DNA of 64,000 nucleotides from a virus, in the IMG/VR virus record IMGVR_UViG_3300043539_001475, positions 1 through 64,000 of that record. One strand, 5' to 3'. The notes beneath the pieces were generated by a model that ran no database searches, was not told the DNA's origin, and saw nothing but the letters and a program-made list of their open reading frames with translations. Positions 1,440 to 17,413 of the stretch are shown here, in pieces (the stretch's first letter is position 1; each line of letters opens with the position of its first letter). Both the position numbers and the translations under genes were made by a program.

Positions 1440-1760
1440 ATGAAAAAGAAAGTTGTGTTTATAAAACTAGATGAATCATCGTCACTTTTTAAGGCTTTAA
1501 AGCAAAGAAATTTGATAGACTATAGAGGTTTTTTATCTTTATACTTAAATGATGTTCCGAGAATAGGAGAAAGCTTTACGCTTCCTTATGATTCTATGAC
1601 CTCTGAAAAAAACGAGATACTAAAATTATATCTTACAAAAAGACCACAAAATAAACCAATTATGAAAGTTGAAGATTTAATTATAGACCAAGTTTGCGCA
1701 GAATATAATTTGTACTACTTGAAATGTTCTTATATAAACGATACGAATAATTGGTTATAA
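1440..1760 (+). CDS. hypothetical protein; stop codon is the TAA of the first TAAC site
   Basis: ORF track; ends ttggttaTAAc. Confidence 0.55.
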   Translation: MKKKVVFIKLDESSSLFKALKQRNLIDYRGFLSLYLNDVPRIGESFTLPYDSMTSEKNEILKLYLTKRPQNKPIMKVEDLIIDQVCAEYNLYYLKCSYINDTNNWL

Positions 1761-1850
1761 CGTATGGTGCTATGAGCAGGTTTGCCTTGCAGAAATATTC
1801 AAATTTAGCACAAATGTTATTGGCAAACTTGCTTATAGCACGTGTTAGCA
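1755..1850. repeat. attC-like hairpin site 1
   Basis: TAAC 1758-1761; arms gtgctatgagcaggtttgcc (1767-1786) / ggcaaacttgcttatagcac (1822-1841); GTTA 1844. Confidence 0.8.
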
Positions 1851-1942
1851 GTAGTACGGTAATTAACCACAAATGCTCATTCGGAGAACCGAACCTTTTT
1901 CTTTTCTTTTTTGAGCGAGGGCAAAAATATTAAAATAAAATT

Positions 1943-2851
1943 ATGACAATAGATTTAAGATACGGAGATGCAATAGAACAAATGAAATTGATAGCAGATG
2001 AAAGTGTTGATGCTATAATTTCAGATATTCCTTATGGGATTTCATTTAGTGATTGGGATGTTAAACATTCTAATACCAATACTGCATTATTAGGGAGTTC
2101 CCCTGCACAACAAAATAGTAAAATATTTAAAAGTAGAGGTAAGCCTAAAAATGGATGGAGCGATAAAGACAAGCAAATAAGCATTGAATTTCAAATATTT
2201 TGCGAAAGTTTTTTAAAAGAGTGTTATCGAATTATGAAACCTGCATCTCCAATATTATGTTTTACAGGAAGGCAATATCAACATAGGTTTACGGTTGCAG
2301 GAGAAAATAGCGGTCTAATATTAAAAGATGTACTTAGTTGGAATAAGAAAAAAGCACCATTTAAAGCACAAAGGATAGGTCAAGTAATAGGTAAAAGAAA
2401 TTCAGATTATAGCGATAATAGAAGATTGGGTAATTTAGCACCAATAGTAGAACCAATTGTGTATATGTTTAAGCCATATAAGATTGGTGGAACTATTACA
2501 GATTGTTATTTGAAGTATGGTACAGGTACTTTTTCTTCTGAAATTTACAAAACAAATTTAATTGAAGAAAGTTCGCATATTTCAGACAAGTTACACGAAA
2601 CCCAAAAGCCGTTAAAACTAATGGAAAACTTAATAAAAACTTTCACAAAAGAACATCAAACTATTTTAGATATGTTTGGTGGCTCAATGACAACAGGAAT
2701 TGCCTGTATAAACACAAATAGAAACTTTATCGGAATTGAGAATAATATGGATTATTTTAATATTTCTTTAAAGAGGGTGGAAGAAAAAAGAAAAGAAAAA
2801 GATTTAAAAAAATTGTGCGATGGTAAAAAAAGAATTTACAACAGAAATTAG
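1943..2851 (+). CDS. DNA N6A/N4C methyltransferase, beta class
   Basis: SDIPY motif IV near the N-terminus, HETQKP, LDMFGGS SAM-binding motif near the C-terminus. Confidence 0.92.
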   Translation: MTIDLRYGDAIEQMKLIADESVDAIISDIPYGISFSDWDVKHSNTNTALLGSSPAQQNSKIFKSRGKPKNGWSDKDKQISIEFQIFCESFLKECYRIMKPASPILCFTGRQYQHRFTVAGENSGLILKDVLSWNKKKAPFKAQRIGQVIGKRNSDYSDNRRLGNLAPIVEPIVYMFKPYKIGGTITDCYLKYGTGTFSSEIYKTNLIEESSHISDKLHETQKPLKLMENLIKTFTKEHQTILDMFGGSMTTGIACINTNRNFIGIENNMDYFNISLKRVEEKRKEKDLKKLCDGKKRIYNRN

Positions 2852-3023
2852 CAATGAACTAATGAACATTTATTTGTTGCTTGGAATTGACAAACCGACT
2901 AATCACGAAGATATTATTCAGTTTGTTTCAGAAGATGTGGAAGCATCAACAAATGCAGAAACATATACAAGTGAGGACATAAAAATTGCATTTAGAAGAT
3001 TAATTGAAACTTATGAATACTAA
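2820..3023 (+). CDS. hypothetical phage protein
   Basis: 67 aa ORF overlapping both neighbours. Confidence 0.5.
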   Translation: MVKKEFTTEISNELMNIYLLLGIDKPTNHEDIIQFVSEDVEASTNAETYTSEDIKIAFRRLIETYEY

Positions 3024-3855
3024 CTTAATATTTGGAGATTGCCAAGAATATTTACCAAAACTTGAAAGTGAAAGTTTTGATTTAATCCTTTGCGATTTAC
3101 CATACGGAACAACAAGGCTGAAATGGGATTGTCCGATTGATTTAGAATTTTTGTTTGGTGAATATGAAAGATTAATTAAACCAAAAGGTGCGATTGTACT
3201 ATTCGGAAACCAACCATTTACAAGTAAATTGATAATGACAAGACCTTCCTTGTACAAATATAGTTGGATATGGGTAAAGCCATTTCCTACGGGGTTTTTA
3301 AATGCAAATTACAGACCGATGCTTTCTTTCGAGGATATACTTGTATTTAGTAAAAGTGGTGCAGGTGCAGGAAGTAAAGACAATAATATGAATTACTATC
3401 CACAAGGATTGATAGAGATAAATAAGAAGAAGAAAAACAAGAAAGGTACGAGAGGTCAACACATACACGATACTGTTAATTGCGGAATACAAAATGTTTT
3501 GAATAGTGAAAAAGAGTATCAGCAAAAATTTACAGGTTATCCGAATAATATTTTAGAATGTGATAGAGATGAACCGCAATTGCACCCAACTCAAAAACCG
3601 TTATTATTGATTGAATACTTGATTAAAACATACTCAAAAGAAGGAGGTAATGTTTTGGATAATACTATGGGAAGCGGAACGGTTGGTGTTGGTTGCAAAA
3701 ATTTAAAAAGAAACTTTGTAGGGATGGAAAACAAAAAGGAATATTTTGACATAGCAAACGAAAGAATACTAACGGCTGTGATAACAGACGAAAAAGAAGG
3801 GGAAAATTTTTTAAAATCTTTTTCTCCACAAACTTTATTCGGAGATGAAAAGTAG
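3004..3855 (+). CDS. DNA N6A/N4C methyltransferase, beta class (start probably ATG 3013)
   Basis: CDLPYG, HPTQKP, LDNTMGSG. Confidence 0.93.
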   Translation: MKLMNTNLIFGDCQEYLPKLESESFDLILCDLPYGTTRLKWDCPIDLEFLFGEYERLIKPKGAIVLFGNQPFTSKLIMTRPSLYKYSWIWVKPFPTGFLNANYRPMLSFEDILVFSKSGAGAGSKDNNMNYYPQGLIEINKKKKNKKGTRGQHIHDTVNCGIQNVLNSEKEYQQKFTGYPNNILECDRDEPQLHPTQKPLLLIEYLIKTYSKEGGNVLDNTMGSGTVGVGCKNLKRNFVGMENKKEYFDIANERILTAVITDEKEGENFLKSFSPQTLFGDEK

Positions 3856-3861
3856 TATTGT

Positions 3862-3954
3862 TGGTAACGTTATCGGGCTTGGCGAAGGTGGGCTTGTAGG
3901 ATGCTCAATTTTAGCAGAATGTTTCTGCCCACTTTTGCCAAACCCGTGTTACCT
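3862..3954. repeat. attC-like hairpin site 2
   Basis: TAAC 3865; arms cgggcttggcgaaggtgggc (3874-3893) / gcccacttttgccaaacccg (3927-3946); GTTA 3948. Confidence 0.82.
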
Positions 3955-4020
3955 GCTGGTGCGGTTAATTCAGGATAAACTTGATACGAAGAACGAAACA
4001 AAAATTTTAAATAAAAAAGC

Positions 4021-4830
4021 GTGGGAAATTTTAACTTAGATACAGACGAACAAAAAGAATGGTATGGTATAAGCACTAACCGAAGTAGTGAACACTTAGG
4101 GGATTGCTTAGAATTGATGCCATTGATAGCAGATGAAAGTATTGATTTGATACTTTGCGACTTGCCATACGGCACTACTCAAAACAAATGGGATAGCGTT
4201 ATTCCACTTGATAAACTTTGGAAAGAGTATGAAAGAATTATAAAGCCTAATGGTGCTATTATTTTAACAAGTGCTGAACCATTTACAAGTGCTTTAGTAA
4301 TGAGCAATCCAAAACTATTTAGGTATGATATAATTTGGGAAAAGCAGAAAGGAAGTGACCCATTAAATGCCAATAGAAAACCATTACGAAGCCACGAAAA
4401 TATACTTGTATTCTACAAGAAACAACCAACATACAACCCACAATTTGAACAAGGCGAACCATATATTAGAAAAGGTGATTGTAGGGTTAAATCAAGCAAT
4501 TTCAACGAAGCAAAAACTATAAACGATAGAGGTAGTGAAGATGGCAAACGATACCCCAAAACCGTTGTAAAGTTTAGTGGCGAAGGAATGAACTCAAACA
4601 ACTTGCACCCTACACAAAAGCCACAAAATTTAATGGAGTATTTGATTAAACAATATAGCAACGAAAACGAAATAATACTTGACAATACGGCAGGAGTATT
4701 TACAACTGCAATAGCTTGTTTAGAAACGAATAGAAAGTATATTGTAATGGAGCAAGAAAAGGAATACTACAGCAAAGGATTAAAACGAATACTTGAATGG
4801 GAACGAGAACAAAAAACAAAATTGTTTTGA
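4021..4830 (+). CDS. DNA N6A/N4C methyltransferase, beta class
   Basis: CDLPYG, HPTQKP, LDNTAGVF. Confidence 0.92.
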   Translation: MGNFNLDTDEQKEWYGISTNRSSEHLGDCLELMPLIADESIDLILCDLPYGTTQNKWDSVIPLDKLWKEYERIIKPNGAIILTSAEPFTSALVMSNPKLFRYDIIWEKQKGSDPLNANRKPLRSHENILVFYKKQPTYNPQFEQGEPYIRKGDCRVKSSNFNEAKTINDRGSEDGKRYPKTVVKFSGEGMNSNNLHPTQKPQNLMEYLIKQYSNENEIILDNTAGVFTTAIACLETNRKYIVMEQEKEYYSKGLKRILEWEREQKTKLF

Positions 4831-4908
4831 AAAAACAAAAGTGCGATGGCTTTTTATTTAAAATTTTCTTTCACAAATGTTCAATAGTAGCAGTATCGTA
4901 GCACTTGC

Positions 4909-5038
4909 AGGTAACGGTCGGGTATTGCCGAAGGTGGGGCATAGTACCACAAATGTTGATTAAACCACTAAAGTTAAATAGATGCAGAATGTTGAAAATA
5001 TAGATGTCAGCCCCACTTTTGGCAATACAGTGTTACCT
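4909..5038. repeat. attC-like hairpin site 3
   Basis: TAAC 4912; arms gtattgccgaaggtggggc (4922-4940) / gccccacttttggcaatac (5010-5028); GTTA 5032. Confidence 0.82.
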
Positions 5039-5641
5039 GCCGTTGTGGGTTCTCAAACGAAATACCGAACAATAGTAGCAGACCCACCTTGGAAGTATGG
5101 TAAATGGGGTAAAGCATCTGACAGCCCTTTAGCAAGAAAGAAGTTCCCAAATGGACAATGGGAAAAAGATTTTGATATACCATACCAAACGATGGGTATT
5201 GAAGAAATTAAGGCTTTAAATGTAGCAAATTTAGCAGATGATAATTGCGAGTTGTATTTATGGACTACCCAAAAATATTTACCTGATGCTTTTGAAGTAT
5301 TGAAGGCTTGGGGTTTCAAGTATTGCCAAACATTGACTTGGTGTAAAACACCACGAGGAACTGGACAAGGTGGAGTATATTGCCCTACAACCGAATTTTT
5401 AATACTTGGGAGAAAAGGTAAAGCACCAAAAGTAAAACGAATAGATACAACTTGGTGGAATGTAAAAAGAACAAGTAATCATTCTAAAAAGCCTGAATTT
5501 TTTCAAGACTTAATCGAAACGGTTTCAGATGCTCCACGATTAGAAATGTTTGCAAGGCGTGAACGTGTCGGATGGGATATTTGGGGCAATGAATTAGAGA
5601 ATGATGTCGAATTGGAAACGTCTGCTAACAATGGCAGGTAA
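4982..5641 (+). CDS. MT-A70 family N6-adenine methyltransferase
   Basis: VADPPW, LYLWTT, WGFKY, HSKKP, LEMFAR, GWDIWGNE. Confidence 0.93.
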   Translation: MQNVENIDVSPTFGNTVLPAVVGSQTKYRTIVADPPWKYGKWGKASDSPLARKKFPNGQWEKDFDIPYQTMGIEEIKALNVANLADDNCELYLWTTQKYLPDAFEVLKAWGFKYCQTLTWCKTPRGTGQGGVYCPTTEFLILGRKGKAPKVKRIDTTWWNVKRTSNHSKKPEFFQDLIETVSDAPRLEMFARRERVGWDIWGNELENDVELETSANNGR

Positions 5642-5768
5642 CGGCAAAGTATAACTGTCAGGTGGGGGATTAAATGCACCGAACCTTCACATTGACACTA
5701 AACTAAATTAGGAGCAGATAGCTTCGGGTGGTTAATCAGCCCCCACTTGCAGTTATACAATGTTATGG
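5636..5768. repeat. attC-like hairpin site 4
   Basis: TAAC 5639; arms gtataactgtcaggtggggg (5649-5668) / cccccacttgcagttatac (5740-5758); GTTA 5762. Confidence 0.8.
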
Positions 5769-5791
5769 GCTGGTGTTTAATACTTATTTTT

Positions 5792-5923
5792 ATGACAGCA
5801 ACAGATGAAAAGTATGTTGAAATTCTAAAAGCCGTTTTACAATCTGAAAAAGTTTGGGAACGAAACGATTTACTATCGGCTTTCAAGAAAGCATTAGCCA
5901 AAAAGAAAACGGCTAAAAAGTAA
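5792..5923 (+). CDS. 43-aa basic microprotein in a mini-cassette
   Basis: MTATDEKYVEILKAVLQSEKVWERNDLLSAFKKALAKKKTAKK*, translated by hand; it fills the cassette 5762-5964. Confidence 0.5.
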   Translation: MTATDEKYVEILKAVLQSEKVWERNDLLSAFKKALAKKKTAKK

Positions 5924-5957
5924 CTGTTATAGGGTGGGTGTGCTTCGGTACACTTGC

Positions 5958-6087
5958 CCATAACGTTTGGTATAAGACCAGTAGCGGAATAGAAATTACA
6001 AACTTTCAAAATTAAACGAATGAATATAGAAACCACAAACTCCCCGAATACCACCGAAACCGCTATTGGTTTTATACCGTGTTATGC
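5958..6087. repeat. attC-like hairpin site 5
   Basis: TAAC 5961; arms ggtataagaccagtagcgg (5969-5987) / ccgctattggttttatacc (6060-6078); GTTA 6081. Confidence 0.82.
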
Positions 6088-6844
6088 ACAGGTTTTTTTA
6101 GGTGATTGCTTGGAACTATACAAGAATATAGAACCGAAAAGTATTGATTTAATTTTAACCGATTTGCCTTATGGTACAACCGCCTGTAAATGGGATACAA
6201 TAATCCCATTTGACAAACTTTGGGAAATGGTTAATTACTTACTTAAACCAAACGGAGCATTTATTACAACTGCTTCGCAACCATTTACAAGTGCTTTGGT
6301 AATGAGTAACCCAAAGATGTTTAAGTATGAATGGATTTGGGATAAAGTACAACCAACTGGAGCATTTAACGCAATTAAGCAACCAATGAAACTACATGAA
6401 AATATTTTAGTATTTTACAATGAACAGCCAATTTATAATAGACAAATGACTGATAGACCGCTAAAAGATTTAAGACCAAACCAAATTAAAACTACTAAAA
6501 AACTGGATAAAATAGAATATGAATATTTGGGCGGACAAAAGAAACAATACTCTGAAAATTGGGATTATACCAAAGTAAACCCAAAAACTATTATTCAATT
6601 TCAAAAATCTGCTGAAAGATTTAAGGAATTTAAACACCCTACACAAAAACCAATAGCGTTATTTGAATACTTACTAAAAACATACAGCAATGAAGGAATG
6701 ACAATATTCGACCCTTGTATGGGTTCAGGAACTACTGGAATAGCTTGTAAAATCACCAACCGAAACTTTATTGGAATAGAGAAAGACGAAGCATATTTCA
6801 AAATCGCAGAACAGCGAATAAATGCACGAACGTTGTTTCCTTAA
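6020..6844 (+). CDS. DNA N6A/N4C methyltransferase, beta class
   Basis: TDLPYG, HPTQKP, FDPCMGSG. Confidence 0.93.
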   Translation: MNIETTNSPNTTETAIGFIPCYAQVFLGDCLELYKNIEPKSIDLILTDLPYGTTACKWDTIIPFDKLWEMVNYLLKPNGAFITTASQPFTSALVMSNPKMFKYEWIWDKVQPTGAFNAIKQPMKLHENILVFYNEQPIYNRQMTDRPLKDLRPNQIKTTKKLDKIEYEYLGGQKKQYSENWDYTKVNPKTIIQFQKSAERFKEFKHPTQKPIALFEYLLKTYSNEGMTIFDPCMGSGTTGIACKITNRNFIGIEKDEAYFKIAEQRINARTLFP

Positions 6845-6853
6845 ACTTGTGCA

Positions 6854-6890
6854 TAACTAATTGCTAACCGCATAAAATGTATTACAAAAT
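6854..6890. repeat. array-terminal site, copy 1 (attI-like?)
   Basis: TAACtaattgcTAACcgcataaaatgtattacaaaat, nearly identical to 7908-7944. Confidence 0.6.
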
Positions 6891-7074
6891 GGCAAAAATA
6901 CTAACAAAAACAAAGGTCATAAGGATTACAGGAACACAACATAAAACACTTCAAAAAATGAAGTCTTACAATGTTGATATAGGTAAGTTTATAAGAGATT
7001 CGATAAGTGAAAAAATTAAAAGAGAATATCAAGATTTAATACCCAAACCAAATAAAATTATTATACCTTTCTAA
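6877..7074 (+). CDS. small ribbon-helix-helix-like DNA-binding protein
   Basis: KTKVIRIT strand followed by two helices (QHKTLQKM; IGKFIRDSISEKI). Confidence 0.5.
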   Translation: MYYKMAKILTKTKVIRITGTQHKTLQKMKSYNVDIGKFIRDSISEKIKREYQDLIPKPNKIIIPF

Positions 7075-7127
7075 CAATTATAAATAAATAAAAATAATTT
7101 TAAACCAAACTTAAAAATTAAAAACAA

Positions 7128-7910
7128 ATGATTGATAGAATTACTGAACAGCCATTTTGCCAAACCCGTGTTAGTGGCAGTACTTTTGTAAACGCTGATT
7201 GCTTTGATGTTTTTCCTTTTATTGAGGATAAATCAATAGATGCTATTATTTGCGATTTACCTTATGGAACAACCGCTTGTAAATGGGACAGTATTTTACC
7301 TTTAGACAAACTTTGGAATGAGTATAAAAGGATAATAAAAGATAATTGCCCGATTGTTTTATTTGCTCAAATACCATTTGATAAAGTACTTGGTTGCTCT
7401 AATTTAGAATGGTTAAAATACGAATGGATTTGGGAAAAATCAAAAGCAAGTAATTTTTTACAAGCTAAATATATGCCGATGCGAGTACACGAAAATATTT
7501 TGATATTTTGCAATGGTAAGGCTAATTATTTCCCACAAAAAACAGAAGGTAAAGCATATAGAACAAGAAAAATAAATGAGAAACACGGCAACCCTGATGC
7601 GTACAACAATATTCCTAATTATATGAATAGAGAGCCAATTGAGATGAATGGAAGACTACCAAGAACTGTTCAATATTTTAAAACGGCACATACAGAAGGG
7701 AAGCTACACCCAACATTAAAACCTTTAGAACTTATGGAATACCTTGTAAAAACCTACACAAACGAAGGAGATATGGTTTTAGATAATACAATGGGTTCGG
7801 GAACAACAAACTTGGCTTGTATAAAATTAAATCGCAAATCAATAGGGATAGAAAAGGAAAAAAAATATTACGATGTCGCTGTTCGGAGGGCTTCGGAGTA
7901 TTGCCACTAA
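7128..7910 (+). CDS. DNA N6A/N4C methyltransferase, beta class
   Basis: CDLPYG, HPTLKP, LDNTMGSG; stop codon is the TAA of TAAC. Confidence 0.93.
   Translation: MIDRITEQPFCQTRVSGSTFVNADCFDVFPFIEDKSIDAIICDLPYGTTACKWDSILPLDKLWNEYKRIIKDNCPIVLFAQIPFDKVLGCSNLEWLKYEWIWEKSKASNFLQAKYMPMRVHENILIFCNGKANYFPQKTEGKAYRTRKINEKHGNPDAYNNIPNYMNREPIEMNGRLPRTVQYFKTAHTEGKLHPTLKPLELMEYLVKTYTNEGDMVLDNTMGSGTTNLACIKLNRKSIGIEKEKKYYDVAVRRASEYCH
7155..7176. repeat. attC-like half site (right arm only)
   Basis: ttttgccaaacccgtgtta is identical to 3933-3951 of site 2. Confidence 0.75.
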
Positions 7911-7944
7911 CTACCTGCTAACTGCATAAAATGTATTATAAAAT
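7908..7944. repeat. array-terminal site, copy 2 (attI-like?)
   Basis: TAACtacctgcTAACtgcataaaatgtattataaaat. Confidence 0.6.
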
Positions 7945-17342: not shown

Positions 17343-17413
17343 TGGCTTATGGTGTAACGGTAACACAACTGTTTTTGGTGCAGTCTTTCTAGGTTCGAAT
17401 CCTTGTAAGCCAA
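17343..17413 (+). tRNA. tRNA-Gln (UUG)
   Basis: Acceptor stem TGGCTTA/TAAGCCA, anticodon arm ACTGT-TT TTG GT-GCAGT, T loop GGTTCGAATCC; no encoded CCA. Confidence 0.92.

What the first reader, a model, noticed from the sequence alone, without database searches (positions are those of the whole stretch)
4982..7176. Cassette genes take their start codon and N-terminus from the upstream recombination hairpin, in three different frames
Seen: ORFs 4982, 6020 and 7128 start upstream of the GTTA (inside the hairpin loop for the first two) and read through the right arm (SPTFGNTVLPAV, TAIGFIPCYAQV, QPFCQTRVSGS). None has an in-frame ATG between GTTA and its catalytic DPPW/DLPY motif. The junction is read as GTG-TTA, TGT-TAT and GTT-AGT respectively, covering all three frames. 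Inference: the hairpin and the gene downstream of it form one expression unit. Either recombination creates translational fusions that switch a gene on or off, or the crossover is on the TAAC side so that hairpin and gene travel together.
Basis: partly seen in the sequence, partly recalled or inferred. Interest (0 to 1): 0.75.

Follow-up and report, generated by a model that had tools for sequence, protein, structure and literature searches.

The report
Phage genes starting inside recombination hairpins
Three anti-restriction DNA methyltransferase genes of this lake-water flavobacterial phage do begin inside the folded recombination hairpin in front of them, but that hairpin belongs to the gene it starts: the array is a mirror-image integron-like cassette system, so gene and start signal move as one unit.

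Summary
The ATGs at 4982 and 6020 lie in the loops of attC-like hairpins. The ATG at 7128 lies before a surviving right arm. All three ORFs read through GTTA, each in a different frame, and none has an in-frame ATG before the catalytic motif.

About 440 such hairpins in 160 viral loci show how the units are built.
- Homology between phages breaks at TAAC, the left foot of the hairpin, in 49 cases. It breaks at GTTA in 1 case.
- A hairpin shares ancestry with its downstream gene and never with its upstream gene.
- The five bases after GTTA are complementary to the five bases before the next TAAC in 74% of cassettes.

The long (~120 nt) hairpins carry the start codon in 115 of 166 cases. The short ones do so in 1 of 84.

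Related phages and Bacteroidota chromosomes have a Xer-like tyrosine recombinase at the TAAC end of such arrays. It lacks the integron-integrase insertion, and this phage has no such gene. Bacterial arrays have the canonical gene orientation, and phage arrays are inverted.

A rarer, sharp exchange at GTTA joins hairpin heads to other gene bodies.

This scan has reported the same system on other genomes. In print I found only a partial report (Qi 2023).

The parts
1758..1847 (+). First hairpin of the array (short class, 82 nt between TAAC and GTTA). TAAC 1758-1761 overlaps the stop codon of backbone ORF 1440-1760. R' is GTTAGCAGT.
   Evidence: z -3.6.
1844..3868 (+). Composite cassette body holding N6_N4 methyltransferase 1943-2851, small ORF 2820-3023 and N6_N4 methyltransferase 3013-3855. 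Its two ends (GTTAGCAGT / TTGGTAAC) are not complementary.
   Evidence: It is partly homologous to mymlan gp007, whose ends do pair.
3865..3951 (+). Hairpin of the short class. Its gene starts downstream of GTTA.
   Evidence: z -5.5.
3948..4915 (+). Cassette body with N6_N4 methyltransferase 4021-4830, which has a GTG start. Its ends GTTACCTGC and GCAGGTAAC are perfectly complementary.
4912..5035 (+). Long hairpin whose loop holds the A-rich leader and ATG 4982. Its right arm encodes residues 10-17.
   Evidence: (z -3.8).
4982..5641 (+). MT-A70 family methyltransferase (first ORF of the finding). The body ends GTTACCTGCC (5032-5041) and GGCAGGTAAC (5633-5642) are complementary, and the stop codon lies inside TAAC.
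5639..5765 (+). Long hairpin with a decayed head: ATA where other heads have ATG, followed by an in-frame stop.
   Evidence: z -3.4.
5762..5964 (+). Small cassette body with a 43-codon ORF (5793-5923). Its ends GTTATGGGC and GCCCATAAC are complementary.
   Evidence: repeat I15.
5961..6084 (+). Long hairpin whose loop holds ATG 6020. Its right arm encodes residues 14-21.
   Evidence: (z -2.5).
6020..6844 (+). N6_N4 methyltransferase (second ORF of the finding). The body ends GTTATGCAC (6081-6089) and GTGCATAAC (6849-6857) are complementary.
6854..6890 (+). Array-terminal site 1: TAAC followed by non-hairpin sequence (TAAC-TA...GCTAAC...). It is the counterpart of the site that abuts the recombinase gene in relatives.
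6877..7074 (+). A 65-aa ORF with no Pfam match, at the array end. A small ORF sits at the same place in phage mymlan.
7105..7178 (+). Half-site made of leader, ATG 7128, right arm and R' GTTAGTGGC. The left arm is missing, so no hairpin forms. The last 55 nt before GTTA are 100% identical to the head of one intact hairpin (L013) and 96-98% identical to others.
   Evidence: z -0.46.
7128..7910 (+). N6_N4 methyltransferase (third ORF of the finding). The body ends GTTAGTGGC (7170-7178) and GCCACTAAC (7903-7911) are complementary.
7908..7944 (+). Array-terminal site 2, a near-copy of site 1.

Best explanation
Positions 1758-7944 are an integron-like array of mobile gene cassettes carried by a phage of Flavobacteriia-type hosts. 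The cargo is mostly orphan DNA methyltransferases, presumably for anti-restriction.

Each cassette consists of three parts:
- an attC-like imperfect hairpin at its 5' end (C, a 4-6 nt spacer, left arm, loop, right arm, a 0-3 nt spacer, then GTTAxxxxx);
- the gene;
- an inverse core (xxxxxTAA) at its 3' end, which pairs with the cassette's own GTTAxxxxx once the cassette is circular.

The usual crossover lies in TAA|C at the left foot of the hairpin, on the gene-sense strand. That strand folds better because of conserved G.T pairs, and it corresponds to the recombinogenic 'bottom' strand of classical attC sites. The hairpin therefore travels with the gene downstream of it.

In the ~120-nt class of hairpins, the loop carries an A-rich translation initiation region and the ATG, and the right arm is read as codons ~7-20. 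The recombination site thus doubles as the gene's start module, in whichever frame that gene needs. The hairpin-encoded peptide is probably a tolerated, unstructured extension.

The recombinase is a compact Xer/XerA-like tyrosine recombinase without the integron-integrase insertion. Related phages and Bacteroidota chromosomes encode it at the TAAC end of such arrays. This phage lacks it, so its array depends on an enzyme supplied in trans or is currently static.

Shown here: the anatomy, the unit boundaries, the covariation of cassette ends, and the link between arrays and the recombinase.
Inferred: the cleavage position within TAAC, the use of folded single strands, and translation from the loop ATG.
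For: Unit boundaries
- mymlan and filifjonk differ by a [hairpin + gene + ..TAAC] block inserted exactly after a TAAC. The same gene is followed by different whole hairpins.
- Ends of >=95% identical segments between loci fall near TAAC in 26 (left) + 23 (right) cases and near GTTA in 1 + 0 cases.
- Pairs of sites with a similar hairpin also have a similar downstream body in 101 cases and a similar upstream body in 0 cases.
- Arrays begin with a full hairpin and end with TAAC and no hairpin.

Pairing of cassette ends
- The match is 5 of 5 complementary bases in 74% of 187 non-redundant cassettes. It is 2.1% when compared with the TAAC of the same hairpin, and 2.6% for random pairs.
- Relatives show compensatory changes, for example GTTAGTGGC/GCCACTAAC against GTTAGCCGC/GCGGCTAAC in homologous genes.

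Strand
- Mismatches of the type that form G.T wobble pairs on the gene-sense strand number 437, against 142 of the opposite-strand type (p = 7e-36).
- All five window hairpins are more stable on the + strand.

Start in the loop
- 115 of 166 long hairpins hold an in-frame ATG, against 1 of 84 short ones.
- The gene's frame is kept open into long hairpins only.
- An A-rich leader precedes the loop ATGs.
- The internal alternatives score far worse on a start-site matrix built from backbone genes: GTG 5045 scores -17.3 and TTG 6110 scores -15.6, against -1.6, -3.7 and +4.0 for the loop ATGs.
- ORF 7128 has no alternative start.
- Homologues of ORF 6020 in unrelated phages align from residue 24-28, which is before TTG 6110.
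- A model of ORF 7128 has residues 1-18 unstructured with pLDDT below 50 and its first strand at residue 19.

Recombinase
- In a 169-kb viral contig with at least 40 hairpins, the recombinase gene starts 47 nt after the last cassette.
- Of 54 viral recombinase loci with upstream DNA, 42 have a hairpin within 1.5 kb upstream. In total there are 159 hairpins upstream and 1 downstream.
- The catalytic residues R, K, HxxR, H and Y are intact.
- Its nearest relatives with solved structures are XerA proteins. Aligned to VchIntIA, it skips IntI4 residues 181-242.
- Bacteroidota chromosomes hold the same 118-nt hairpins and recombinase, with cassette ORFs on the other strand in 15 of 18 cases. In viral arrays ORFs are hairpin-sense in 170 of 175 and 88 of 92 cases.

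This phage
- It has no PF00589 match in six frames.
Against: - There is no direct evidence of translation or transcription.
- The start-site scores of ATG 4982 and ATG 6020 are only at the 6th and 1st percentile of backbone gene starts.
- ORF 4982 could start at GTG 5045 and still keep its whole MT-A70 domain, which begins at residue 28.
- Hairpin and gene are not an absolute unit. In 218 site pairs only the hairpin is shared, and in 152 only the body.
- No recombinase is encoded in this genome, so activity here is unproven.
- The one homologous hairpin tested in the laboratory (P12002L attC1) was not recombined by the class 1 integrase IntI1 (Qi 2023, PMC9892861). That test used a foreign enzyme.
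- The data do not separate folded single-strand recombination from double-strand recombination.
- The structure model is weak (mean pLDDT 61).
Confidence: 0.8

Rival explanations
1. The genes start at a non-ATG codon inside the cassette, downstream of GTTA. The open frame through the hairpin is then incidental.
For: ORF 4982 has an in-frame GTG at 5045, six codons before its Pfam domain starts. The neighbouring cassette gene 4021 has no ATG and must use GTG.
Against: ORF 7128 has no ATG, GTG or TTG between GTTA and DLPY. The only candidate for ORF 6020, TTG 6110, lies inside the conserved GDCLE motif. GTG 5045 and TTG 6110 score -17.3 and -15.6 on the start-site matrix. The frame is kept open into long hairpins in 86% of cases against 34% for the other frames, and into short hairpins not at all. 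Hairpin length class predicts where the ATG lies.
Confidence: 0.08
2. The array has canonical integron polarity. The crossover is at G|TTA, each hairpin belongs to the gene upstream of it, and every insertion creates a new translational fusion that can switch the next gene on or off.
For: Classical attC sites lie 3' of their genes. HattCI called the P12002L hairpin in that polarity (Qi 2023). All three frames are used. Module borders at GTTA do exist.
Against: Recent breakpoints fall at GTTA in 1 case and at TAAC in 49. A hairpin never shares ancestry with its upstream gene (0 pairs). The last gene of an array has no hairpin after it, while the first gene has one before it. The recombinase sits at the TAAC end.
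Confidence: 0.03
3. The hairpins are RNA-level elements, such as processing sites, terminators or translational regulators of a polycistronic early mRNA. Modularity then arises from ordinary homologous recombination at conserved repeats.
For: The wobble pairs favour the mRNA-sense strand. All hairpins in phage arrays are co-oriented with transcription. The start codon sits in an open, A-rich loop.
Against: Cassette-specific complementarity spans whole genes. Homology breaks within 1-5 nt of a 4-nt core, with no flanking homology. There is a tight link to a tyrosine recombinase. In bacterial arrays the same hairpins lie antisense to the genes, so the well-folding strand is not in those mRNAs. 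A secondary RNA role in phages is not excluded.
Confidence: 0.06

Closest known systems
Integrons: attC-bounded cassettes, attI, IntI. This includes clusters of attC sites lacking an integrase (CALINs) reported in phages, notably Polaribacter phage P12002L with two methyltransferases (Qi et al. 2023, PMC9892861).
   Same: - The sites are imperfect hairpins with an R''-spacer-L''...L'-spacer-R' layout and conserved AAC/GTT cores.
- Each cassette's two cores pair with each other, not with those of its neighbour.
- There is one preferred crossover at one foot of the hairpin.
- A tyrosine recombinase and a non-hairpin site sit at one end of the array, and the array is variable.
- The P12002L array is the same family. 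Its terminal site was recombined by IntI1 at the position I call TAA|C.
   Different: - In phages the genes are inverted relative to site polarity, so the hairpin precedes its gene and new cassettes would enter at the 3' end of the gene row.
- There is no Pc-type promoter logic.
- About half of the cassettes embed their start codon and first 14-25 codons in the hairpin.
- The recombinase lacks the IntI-specific insertion.
- Qi et al. read the P12002L sites as two divergent attC sites and did not describe this layout.
Sedentary chromosomal integrons with homogeneous ~120-nt attC sites (Vibrio VCR type) and their occasional inverted, self-expressed cassettes. This comparison rests on my own knowledge and was not tested here.
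   Same: Site length is about 118-125 nt. Sites within one array are near-identical while the genes are unrelated (218 hairpin-only pairs). Arrays can be very long: at least 40 sites in one viral contig.
   Different: Here inversion is the rule (about 96% of phage cassettes), not the exception. The host is a virus.
Xer recombination of folded single-stranded DNA (CTX phage integration at dif) and Xer-dependent pdif modules of Acinetobacter plasmids. This comparison rests on my own knowledge.
   Same: The recombinase is closest to XerA, XerC and XerD. Gene modules are bracketed by inverted short cores.
   Different: I did not recognise a 28-bp dif-like duplex site. The sites are long hairpins with variable loops. 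The enzyme is encoded next to the array rather than being the host's chromosome-dimer resolvase.
PeSL 'promoter-early stem-loop' mobile regulatory cassettes of T4-type phages (Arbiol et al. 2010). This comparison rests on my own knowledge.
   Same: Stem-loops carrying expression signals flank small accessory genes in hyperplastic regions of phage genomes and mediate their shuffling.
   Different: PeSLs are thought to act through homologous recombination between repeats. They have no dedicated recombinase, no paired cassette ends and no coding sequence in the stem.

Membership tests
Integron (complete) | An integron integrase: a tyrosine recombinase with the IntI-specific additional domain (I2 helix). 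| tested here: not met
   This genome has no PF00589 match. The array-linked recombinases of relatives score 155-208 bits on TIGR02249, below the 265-bit cut-off, and match in two stretches. Aligned to VchIntIA (2a3v), they skip its residues 181-242.
Integron (complete) | attC-type sites: imperfect hairpins with R''/L''/L'/R' boxes, an unpaired spacer and conserved AAC...GTT. | tested here: met
   All five window sites and about 440 sites in relatives have the form TAAC, 4-6 nt spacer, stem, loop, stem, 0-3 nt spacer, GTTA. The IntegronFinder covariance model could not be run here. HattCI called the homologous P12002L hairpin an attC site (Qi 2023).
Integron (complete) | The inverse core at one end of a cassette pairs with the core at its other end, as expected from a circular intermediate. 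| tested here: met
   The match is 5/5 in 74% of 187 cassettes, against 2-3% in controls. It is perfect over 9-10 bp for four window cassettes.
Integron (complete) | The cassette is an ORF followed by its attC. Genes point away from intI/attI and are expressed from Pc. | tested here: not met
   In phage arrays the hairpin precedes its ORF, and ORFs point toward the recombinase end (170/175 and 88/92 cassettes). The feature is met in the Bacteroidota chromosomal arrays, in 15 of 18 cassettes.
Integron (complete) | The sites are recombined by an integron integrase. | not testable with these tools
   From the literature only: IntI1 did not recombine the P12002L hairpin (attC1), but it did recombine the array-terminal site (attC2) as its bottom strand (Qi 2023).
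CALIN (cluster of attC sites lacking an integrase) | At least two attC-type sites and no integrase nearby. | tested here: met
   There are five hairpins within 4.3 kb and no tyrosine recombinase in the 101-kb record, which CheckV rates as complete.
Xer/dif-type site-specific recombination modules | A Xer-family recombinase acting on a ~28-bp duplex site with two arms and a 6-8 bp central region. | tested here: inconclusive
   The recombinase is most similar to XerA (4a8e at 5e-58; NF040815 at 205-226 bits). I did not recognise a dif-like duplex site. The covariation of cassette ends argues for a folded substrate.

The most novel reading that the evidence does not exclude
GTTA is a second, rarer crossover point, perhaps through use of the other strand of the hairpin. 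Hairpin 'heads' (leader, ATG and the first 14-25 codons) would then be portable start modules that are re-attached in frame to other gene bodies. This would be a DNA-level analogue of exon shuffling. It could also be how start-less gene fragments become expressed, mobile cassettes, which bears on the unsolved origin of integron cassettes.
Probability: 0.35. Interest if true: 0.75.

Novelty: new variant of a known kind. Interest (0 to 1): 0.65.

Why it matters
- **One stretch of DNA, two jobs.** About 120 nt serves as a site-specific recombination substrate, constrained by stem pairing. The same stretch serves as a translation start region plus N-terminal coding sequence. This explains how promoterless cassettes can be expressed wherever they land without an integron Pc promoter.
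- **An assumption about integron integrases becomes testable.** The I2 insertion of these enzymes is held to be what made hairpin (single-strand) recombination possible (abstract of PMC7790495, seen). Here, arrays of attC-type sites are tied to a recombinase that lacks that insertion.
- **A route for swapping anti-restriction genes.** The system gives flavobacterial phages a way to exchange methyltransferases. Nilsson et al. (PMC7077304) linked methyltransferase content to plating efficiency in Muminvirus.
- **Annotation pipelines will mis-orient these arrays.** Tools that assume attC lies 3' of its gene will get the polarity wrong and may truncate the genes.

Tried and rejected
- **Read laying.** I tried to lay reads or contigs from four lake metagenomes that hold variant copies of the array (shares 0.40-0.87), to look for excision junctions. 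The RNA runs found held at most 0.07 of the sampled words, so I do not count them as evidence.
- **Rfam.** The only match in the window is a tRNA. The hairpins match no RNA family.
- **Start-site matrix.** The matrix built from backbone genes is little more than A-richness. It separates loop ATGs from internal alternatives but does not prove that the loop ATGs are used.
- **Promoter in the loops.** I saw no Bacteroidota -7 box (TAnnTTTG) in the loops of 4912-5035 or 5961-6084 by eye, so I make no claim of a cassette-borne promoter.
- **IS200/IS605-type single-strand transposition.** I considered this model (target tetranucleotide plus subterminal hairpins) and dropped it. There is one hairpin per unit, the paired ends span the gene, and the linked enzyme is a tyrosine recombinase.
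- **Invertible-segment (shufflon) model.** I dropped this because inversion would not give coding sequence.
- **Covariance model of the hairpins.** I did not build one. A purpose-written scan (TAAC/GTTA anchors plus duplex energy) was used instead, so the counts depend on its thresholds (-22 kcal/mol with RNA parameters).
- **Structure model.** The model of ORF 7128 is of low confidence (pLDDT 61) and supports only the statement that residues 1-18 are not part of the fold.


Full report
**What the window is.** It is the first 64 kb of a 101-kb viral record that CheckV rates as complete. It has low G+C and almost all genes lie on one strand. Only pieces of it match cultured phages, namely methyltransferase genes of the Flavobacterium Muminvirus phages. 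The array sequence is present in lake and freshwater metagenomes from 2016 to 2024.

**The observation.** Positions 1758-7944 hold six DNA methyltransferase genes: five of the N6_N4 family and one MT-A70. They are separated by five imperfect hairpins with a common plan: TAAC, a 4-6 nt spacer, a ~19-bp stem, a loop, the other arm, a 0-3 nt spacer, then GTTA. TAAC starts at 1758, 3865, 4912, 5639 and 5961. GTTA starts at 1844, 3948, 5032, 5762 and 6081. These are the only strong hairpins of this plan in the whole genome. They fold as single-stranded DNA better than shuffled controls (z -2.5 to -5.5), and always better on the + strand.

- ATG 4982 and ATG 6020 lie in hairpin loops. ATG 7128 lies 42 nt before a GTTA whose left arm is missing.
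- The junction codons are GTG-TTA, TGT-TAT and GTT-AGT.
- No ORF has an in-frame ATG before the catalytic motif.
- Non-ATG alternatives exist only for ORF 4982 (GTG 5045) and ORF 6020. For ORF 6020 the candidate is TTG 6110, which lies inside the conserved GDCLE motif, downstream of where unrelated homologues begin to align.

**Which side is the crossover?** Each gene body is bracketed by perfect 9-10 bp inverted repeats, for example GTTACCTGCC at 5032 and GGCAGGTAAC at 5633. That fits a circular cassette with either polarity, so I turned to relatives.

Phages mymlan and filifjonk have the same kind of array.
- Filifjonk carries an extra block [hairpin + gene + ..TAAC] inserted exactly after a TAAC.
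- After a shared gene, the two phages carry different whole hairpins.
- A shared last gene brings its own upstream hairpin whatever lies before it.

I then fetched 79 viral loci with homologues of ORF 7128 and found 298 hairpins on the gene-sense strand.
- Ends of >=95% identical segments between loci lie within 15 nt of TAAC in 49 cases and near GTTA in 1 case.
- Among site pairs, hairpin and downstream body are similar together 101 times. Hairpin and upstream body are similar together 0 times.
- Arrays start with a full hairpin and end in TAAC plus non-hairpin sequence. This holds for the window (6854 and 7908), mymlan and P12002L.

**Evidence that these are recombination sites.** The five bases after GTTA are fully complementary to the five bases before the next TAAC in 74% of 187 non-redundant cassettes. 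The figure is 2.1% for the TAAC of the same hairpin and 2.6% for random pairs. Many different pentamers are used, so this is covariation. It means the two ends of a cassette meet and pair, as in an excised integron cassette.

Stem mismatches are strongly biased towards types that form G.T pairs on the gene-sense strand: 437 against 142 of the opposite-strand type (p = 7e-36, with site selection blind to strand). That strand corresponds to the 'bottom' strand of classical attC sites, the one that is bound and cleaved (abstract of PMC3458562, seen).

**The recombinase.** This phage has none. A 169-kb viral contig has an array of at least 40 hairpins, and a 289-aa tyrosine recombinase gene starts 47 nt after the last cassette's ..GCACATAAC. 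Homologues at 38-43% identity, with all catalytic residues intact, follow arrays directly in other loci.

Of 54 further viral loci seeded on this protein and having upstream DNA, 42 have a hairpin within 1.5 kb upstream. Across the 80 loci there are 159 hairpins upstream, 1 downstream and 4 of opposite polarity.

The family is closest to XerA (PDB 4a8e at 5e-58; NF040815). It falls below the integron-integrase cut-off, and it lacks the segment that corresponds to VchIntIA residues 181-242.

**Bacterial counterparts.** The same recombinase family (35-45% identity) and the same 118-nt hairpins occur in Bacteroidota chromosomes, including Chryseobacterium, Hymenobacter and Flammeovirgaceae. Their cargo is diverse. 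There the cassette ORFs lie on the opposite strand in 15 of 18 cases, which is the canonical integron layout. In viral arrays they lie on the hairpin-sense strand in 170 of 175 and 88 of 92 cases. The phage arrays are thus a mirror-image version, and that is why the hairpin lies in front of its gene.

**Do the genes start in the loop?** Hairpins fall into two length classes.
- Of the long ones (loop >= 100 nt), 115 of 166 hold an in-frame ATG 41-78 nt before GTTA.
- Of the short ones, 1 of 84 does. Their ATG lies 18-100 nt after GTTA.

The gene's frame is open for at least 14 codons upstream of GTTA in 86% of long hairpins, against 34% for the other two frames (p = 1e-13). Short hairpins show no difference.

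Loop ATGs are preceded by an A-rich leader like that of ordinary genes. In the window they outscore the internal alternatives by 12-16 bits. All three frames occur across GTTA (79, 29 and 8 cases), as expected if each head belongs to its own gene. A modest model of ORF 7128 leaves residues 1-18 unstructured ahead of the first strand. Translation from the loop ATG is therefore well supported but still inferred.

**Head swapping.** The unit is not absolute. Module borders are sharp at GTTA as well as at TAAC.
- In 60 pairs the head is the same and the body differs. The commonest first mismatch lies directly after GTTA (offset +4 in 31 pairs, +5 or +6 in 6).
- In 97 pairs the body is the same and the head differs. 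In 76 of them the last mismatch is 1-4 nt before GTTA.

For the window's own genes:
- The head of ORF 6020 recurs at 95% identity on a different body, and its body recurs at 85-92% identity behind other heads.
- The head of ORF 7128 occurs at 49 sites. It sits on the same body at 39 sites and on another methyltransferase at 7. The remaining 3 sit on three other bodies, and at least two of those frames close within a few codons after GTTA.
- The body of ORF 7128 occurs at 81 sites. At 35 of them it carries other head types (at least six), and every row printed is in frame.

Hairpin 5639-5765 looks like a decayed head, with ATA in place of ATG and then a stop. Whether it reflects occasional recombination of the other strand, gene conversion or cassette genesis is open.

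**What is known.** Qi et al. 2023 (PMC9892861) reported CALINs in phages, including two methyltransferases in Polaribacter phage P12002L. That array is the same family. Their attC1 is a true hairpin, and IntI1 did not recombine it. Their attC2 is the reverse complement of the array-terminal site, and IntI1 recombined it at what I call TAA|C. They read the two sites as divergent. They did not describe the inverted layout, the linked recombinase or the start codons in the loops.

Nilsson et al. 2020 noted variable methyltransferases in Muminvirus but no hairpins. Five literature searches found nothing closer.

Earlier notes of this scan describe the same system, and the same loop-start feature, on other genomes. 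My analysis was done independently and agrees with them.

**Verdict.** The unit reading is correct. The system is a new variant of the integron kind. This particular array lacks its recombinase and has one degraded site at 7105-7178.

Noticed in passing
window 6854-6890 and 7908-7944: Two near-identical ~37-nt non-hairpin sites (TAAC-TA..GCTAAC.GCATAAAATGTATTA.AAAAT) follow the fifth and sixth methyltransferase genes. Together they bracket the small ORF 6877-7074 and the methyltransferase at 7128. Terminal sites next to recombinase genes in relatives also begin TAAC-TA but otherwise differ.
   Followed up: partly
window 7075-7178: The cassette of ORF 7128 has lost its left arm. Similarity to intact hairpins starts about 22 nt before the ATG, inside the loop. 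The unit can no longer fold, but the coding head is intact.
   Followed up: partly
window 1844-3868: The first cassette holds two methyltransferase genes and a small ORF. Its two ends do not pair (GTTAGCAGT against TTGGTAAC). It is probably a fusion of two cassettes that has lost the internal site. Its first ~200 nt and a 119-nt stretch match mymlan gp007, whose ends do pair.
   Followed up: partly
window 4021-4830: This methyltransferase has no in-frame ATG before its conserved motif. It must start at GTG 4021, which has a good A-rich leader (score 6.7).
   Followed up: partly
window 5925-5967: A short extra hairpin lies at the end of the small cassette. Its left half repeats the cassette's own start (GTTATAGGGTGGGTGT against GTTATGGGCTGGTGT).
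   Followed up: no
L050, L006 and L087 (IMG/VR contig of 169,658 bases, about 78.9-115.7 kb): An array of at least 40 hairpin cassettes over about 37 kb ends at a Xer-like recombinase gene. Several hairpins within it are 96% identical while their genes are unrelated.
   Followed up: partly
L211 (Chryseobacterium luquanense), L207, L214, L249, L216, L229: These Bacteroidota chromosomal arrays have the same 118-nt hairpins and recombinase in canonical integron orientation. Their cargo is not methyltransferases (Cys-rich CPCC, MORN, metallophosphoesterase, DUF4919, TPR). In Hymenobacter the recombinase gene is convergent with the array end.
   Followed up: partly
L002 (LR745206, uncultured phage of 634,780 bases): A huge phage carries hairpins of the same plan. 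It also shares 65 nt (94% identity) with the end of the window's 4021 cassette, and the similarity stops just after TAACGG.
   Followed up: no
window 17343-17413: A tRNA gene, the only Rfam match in the window.
   Followed up: no
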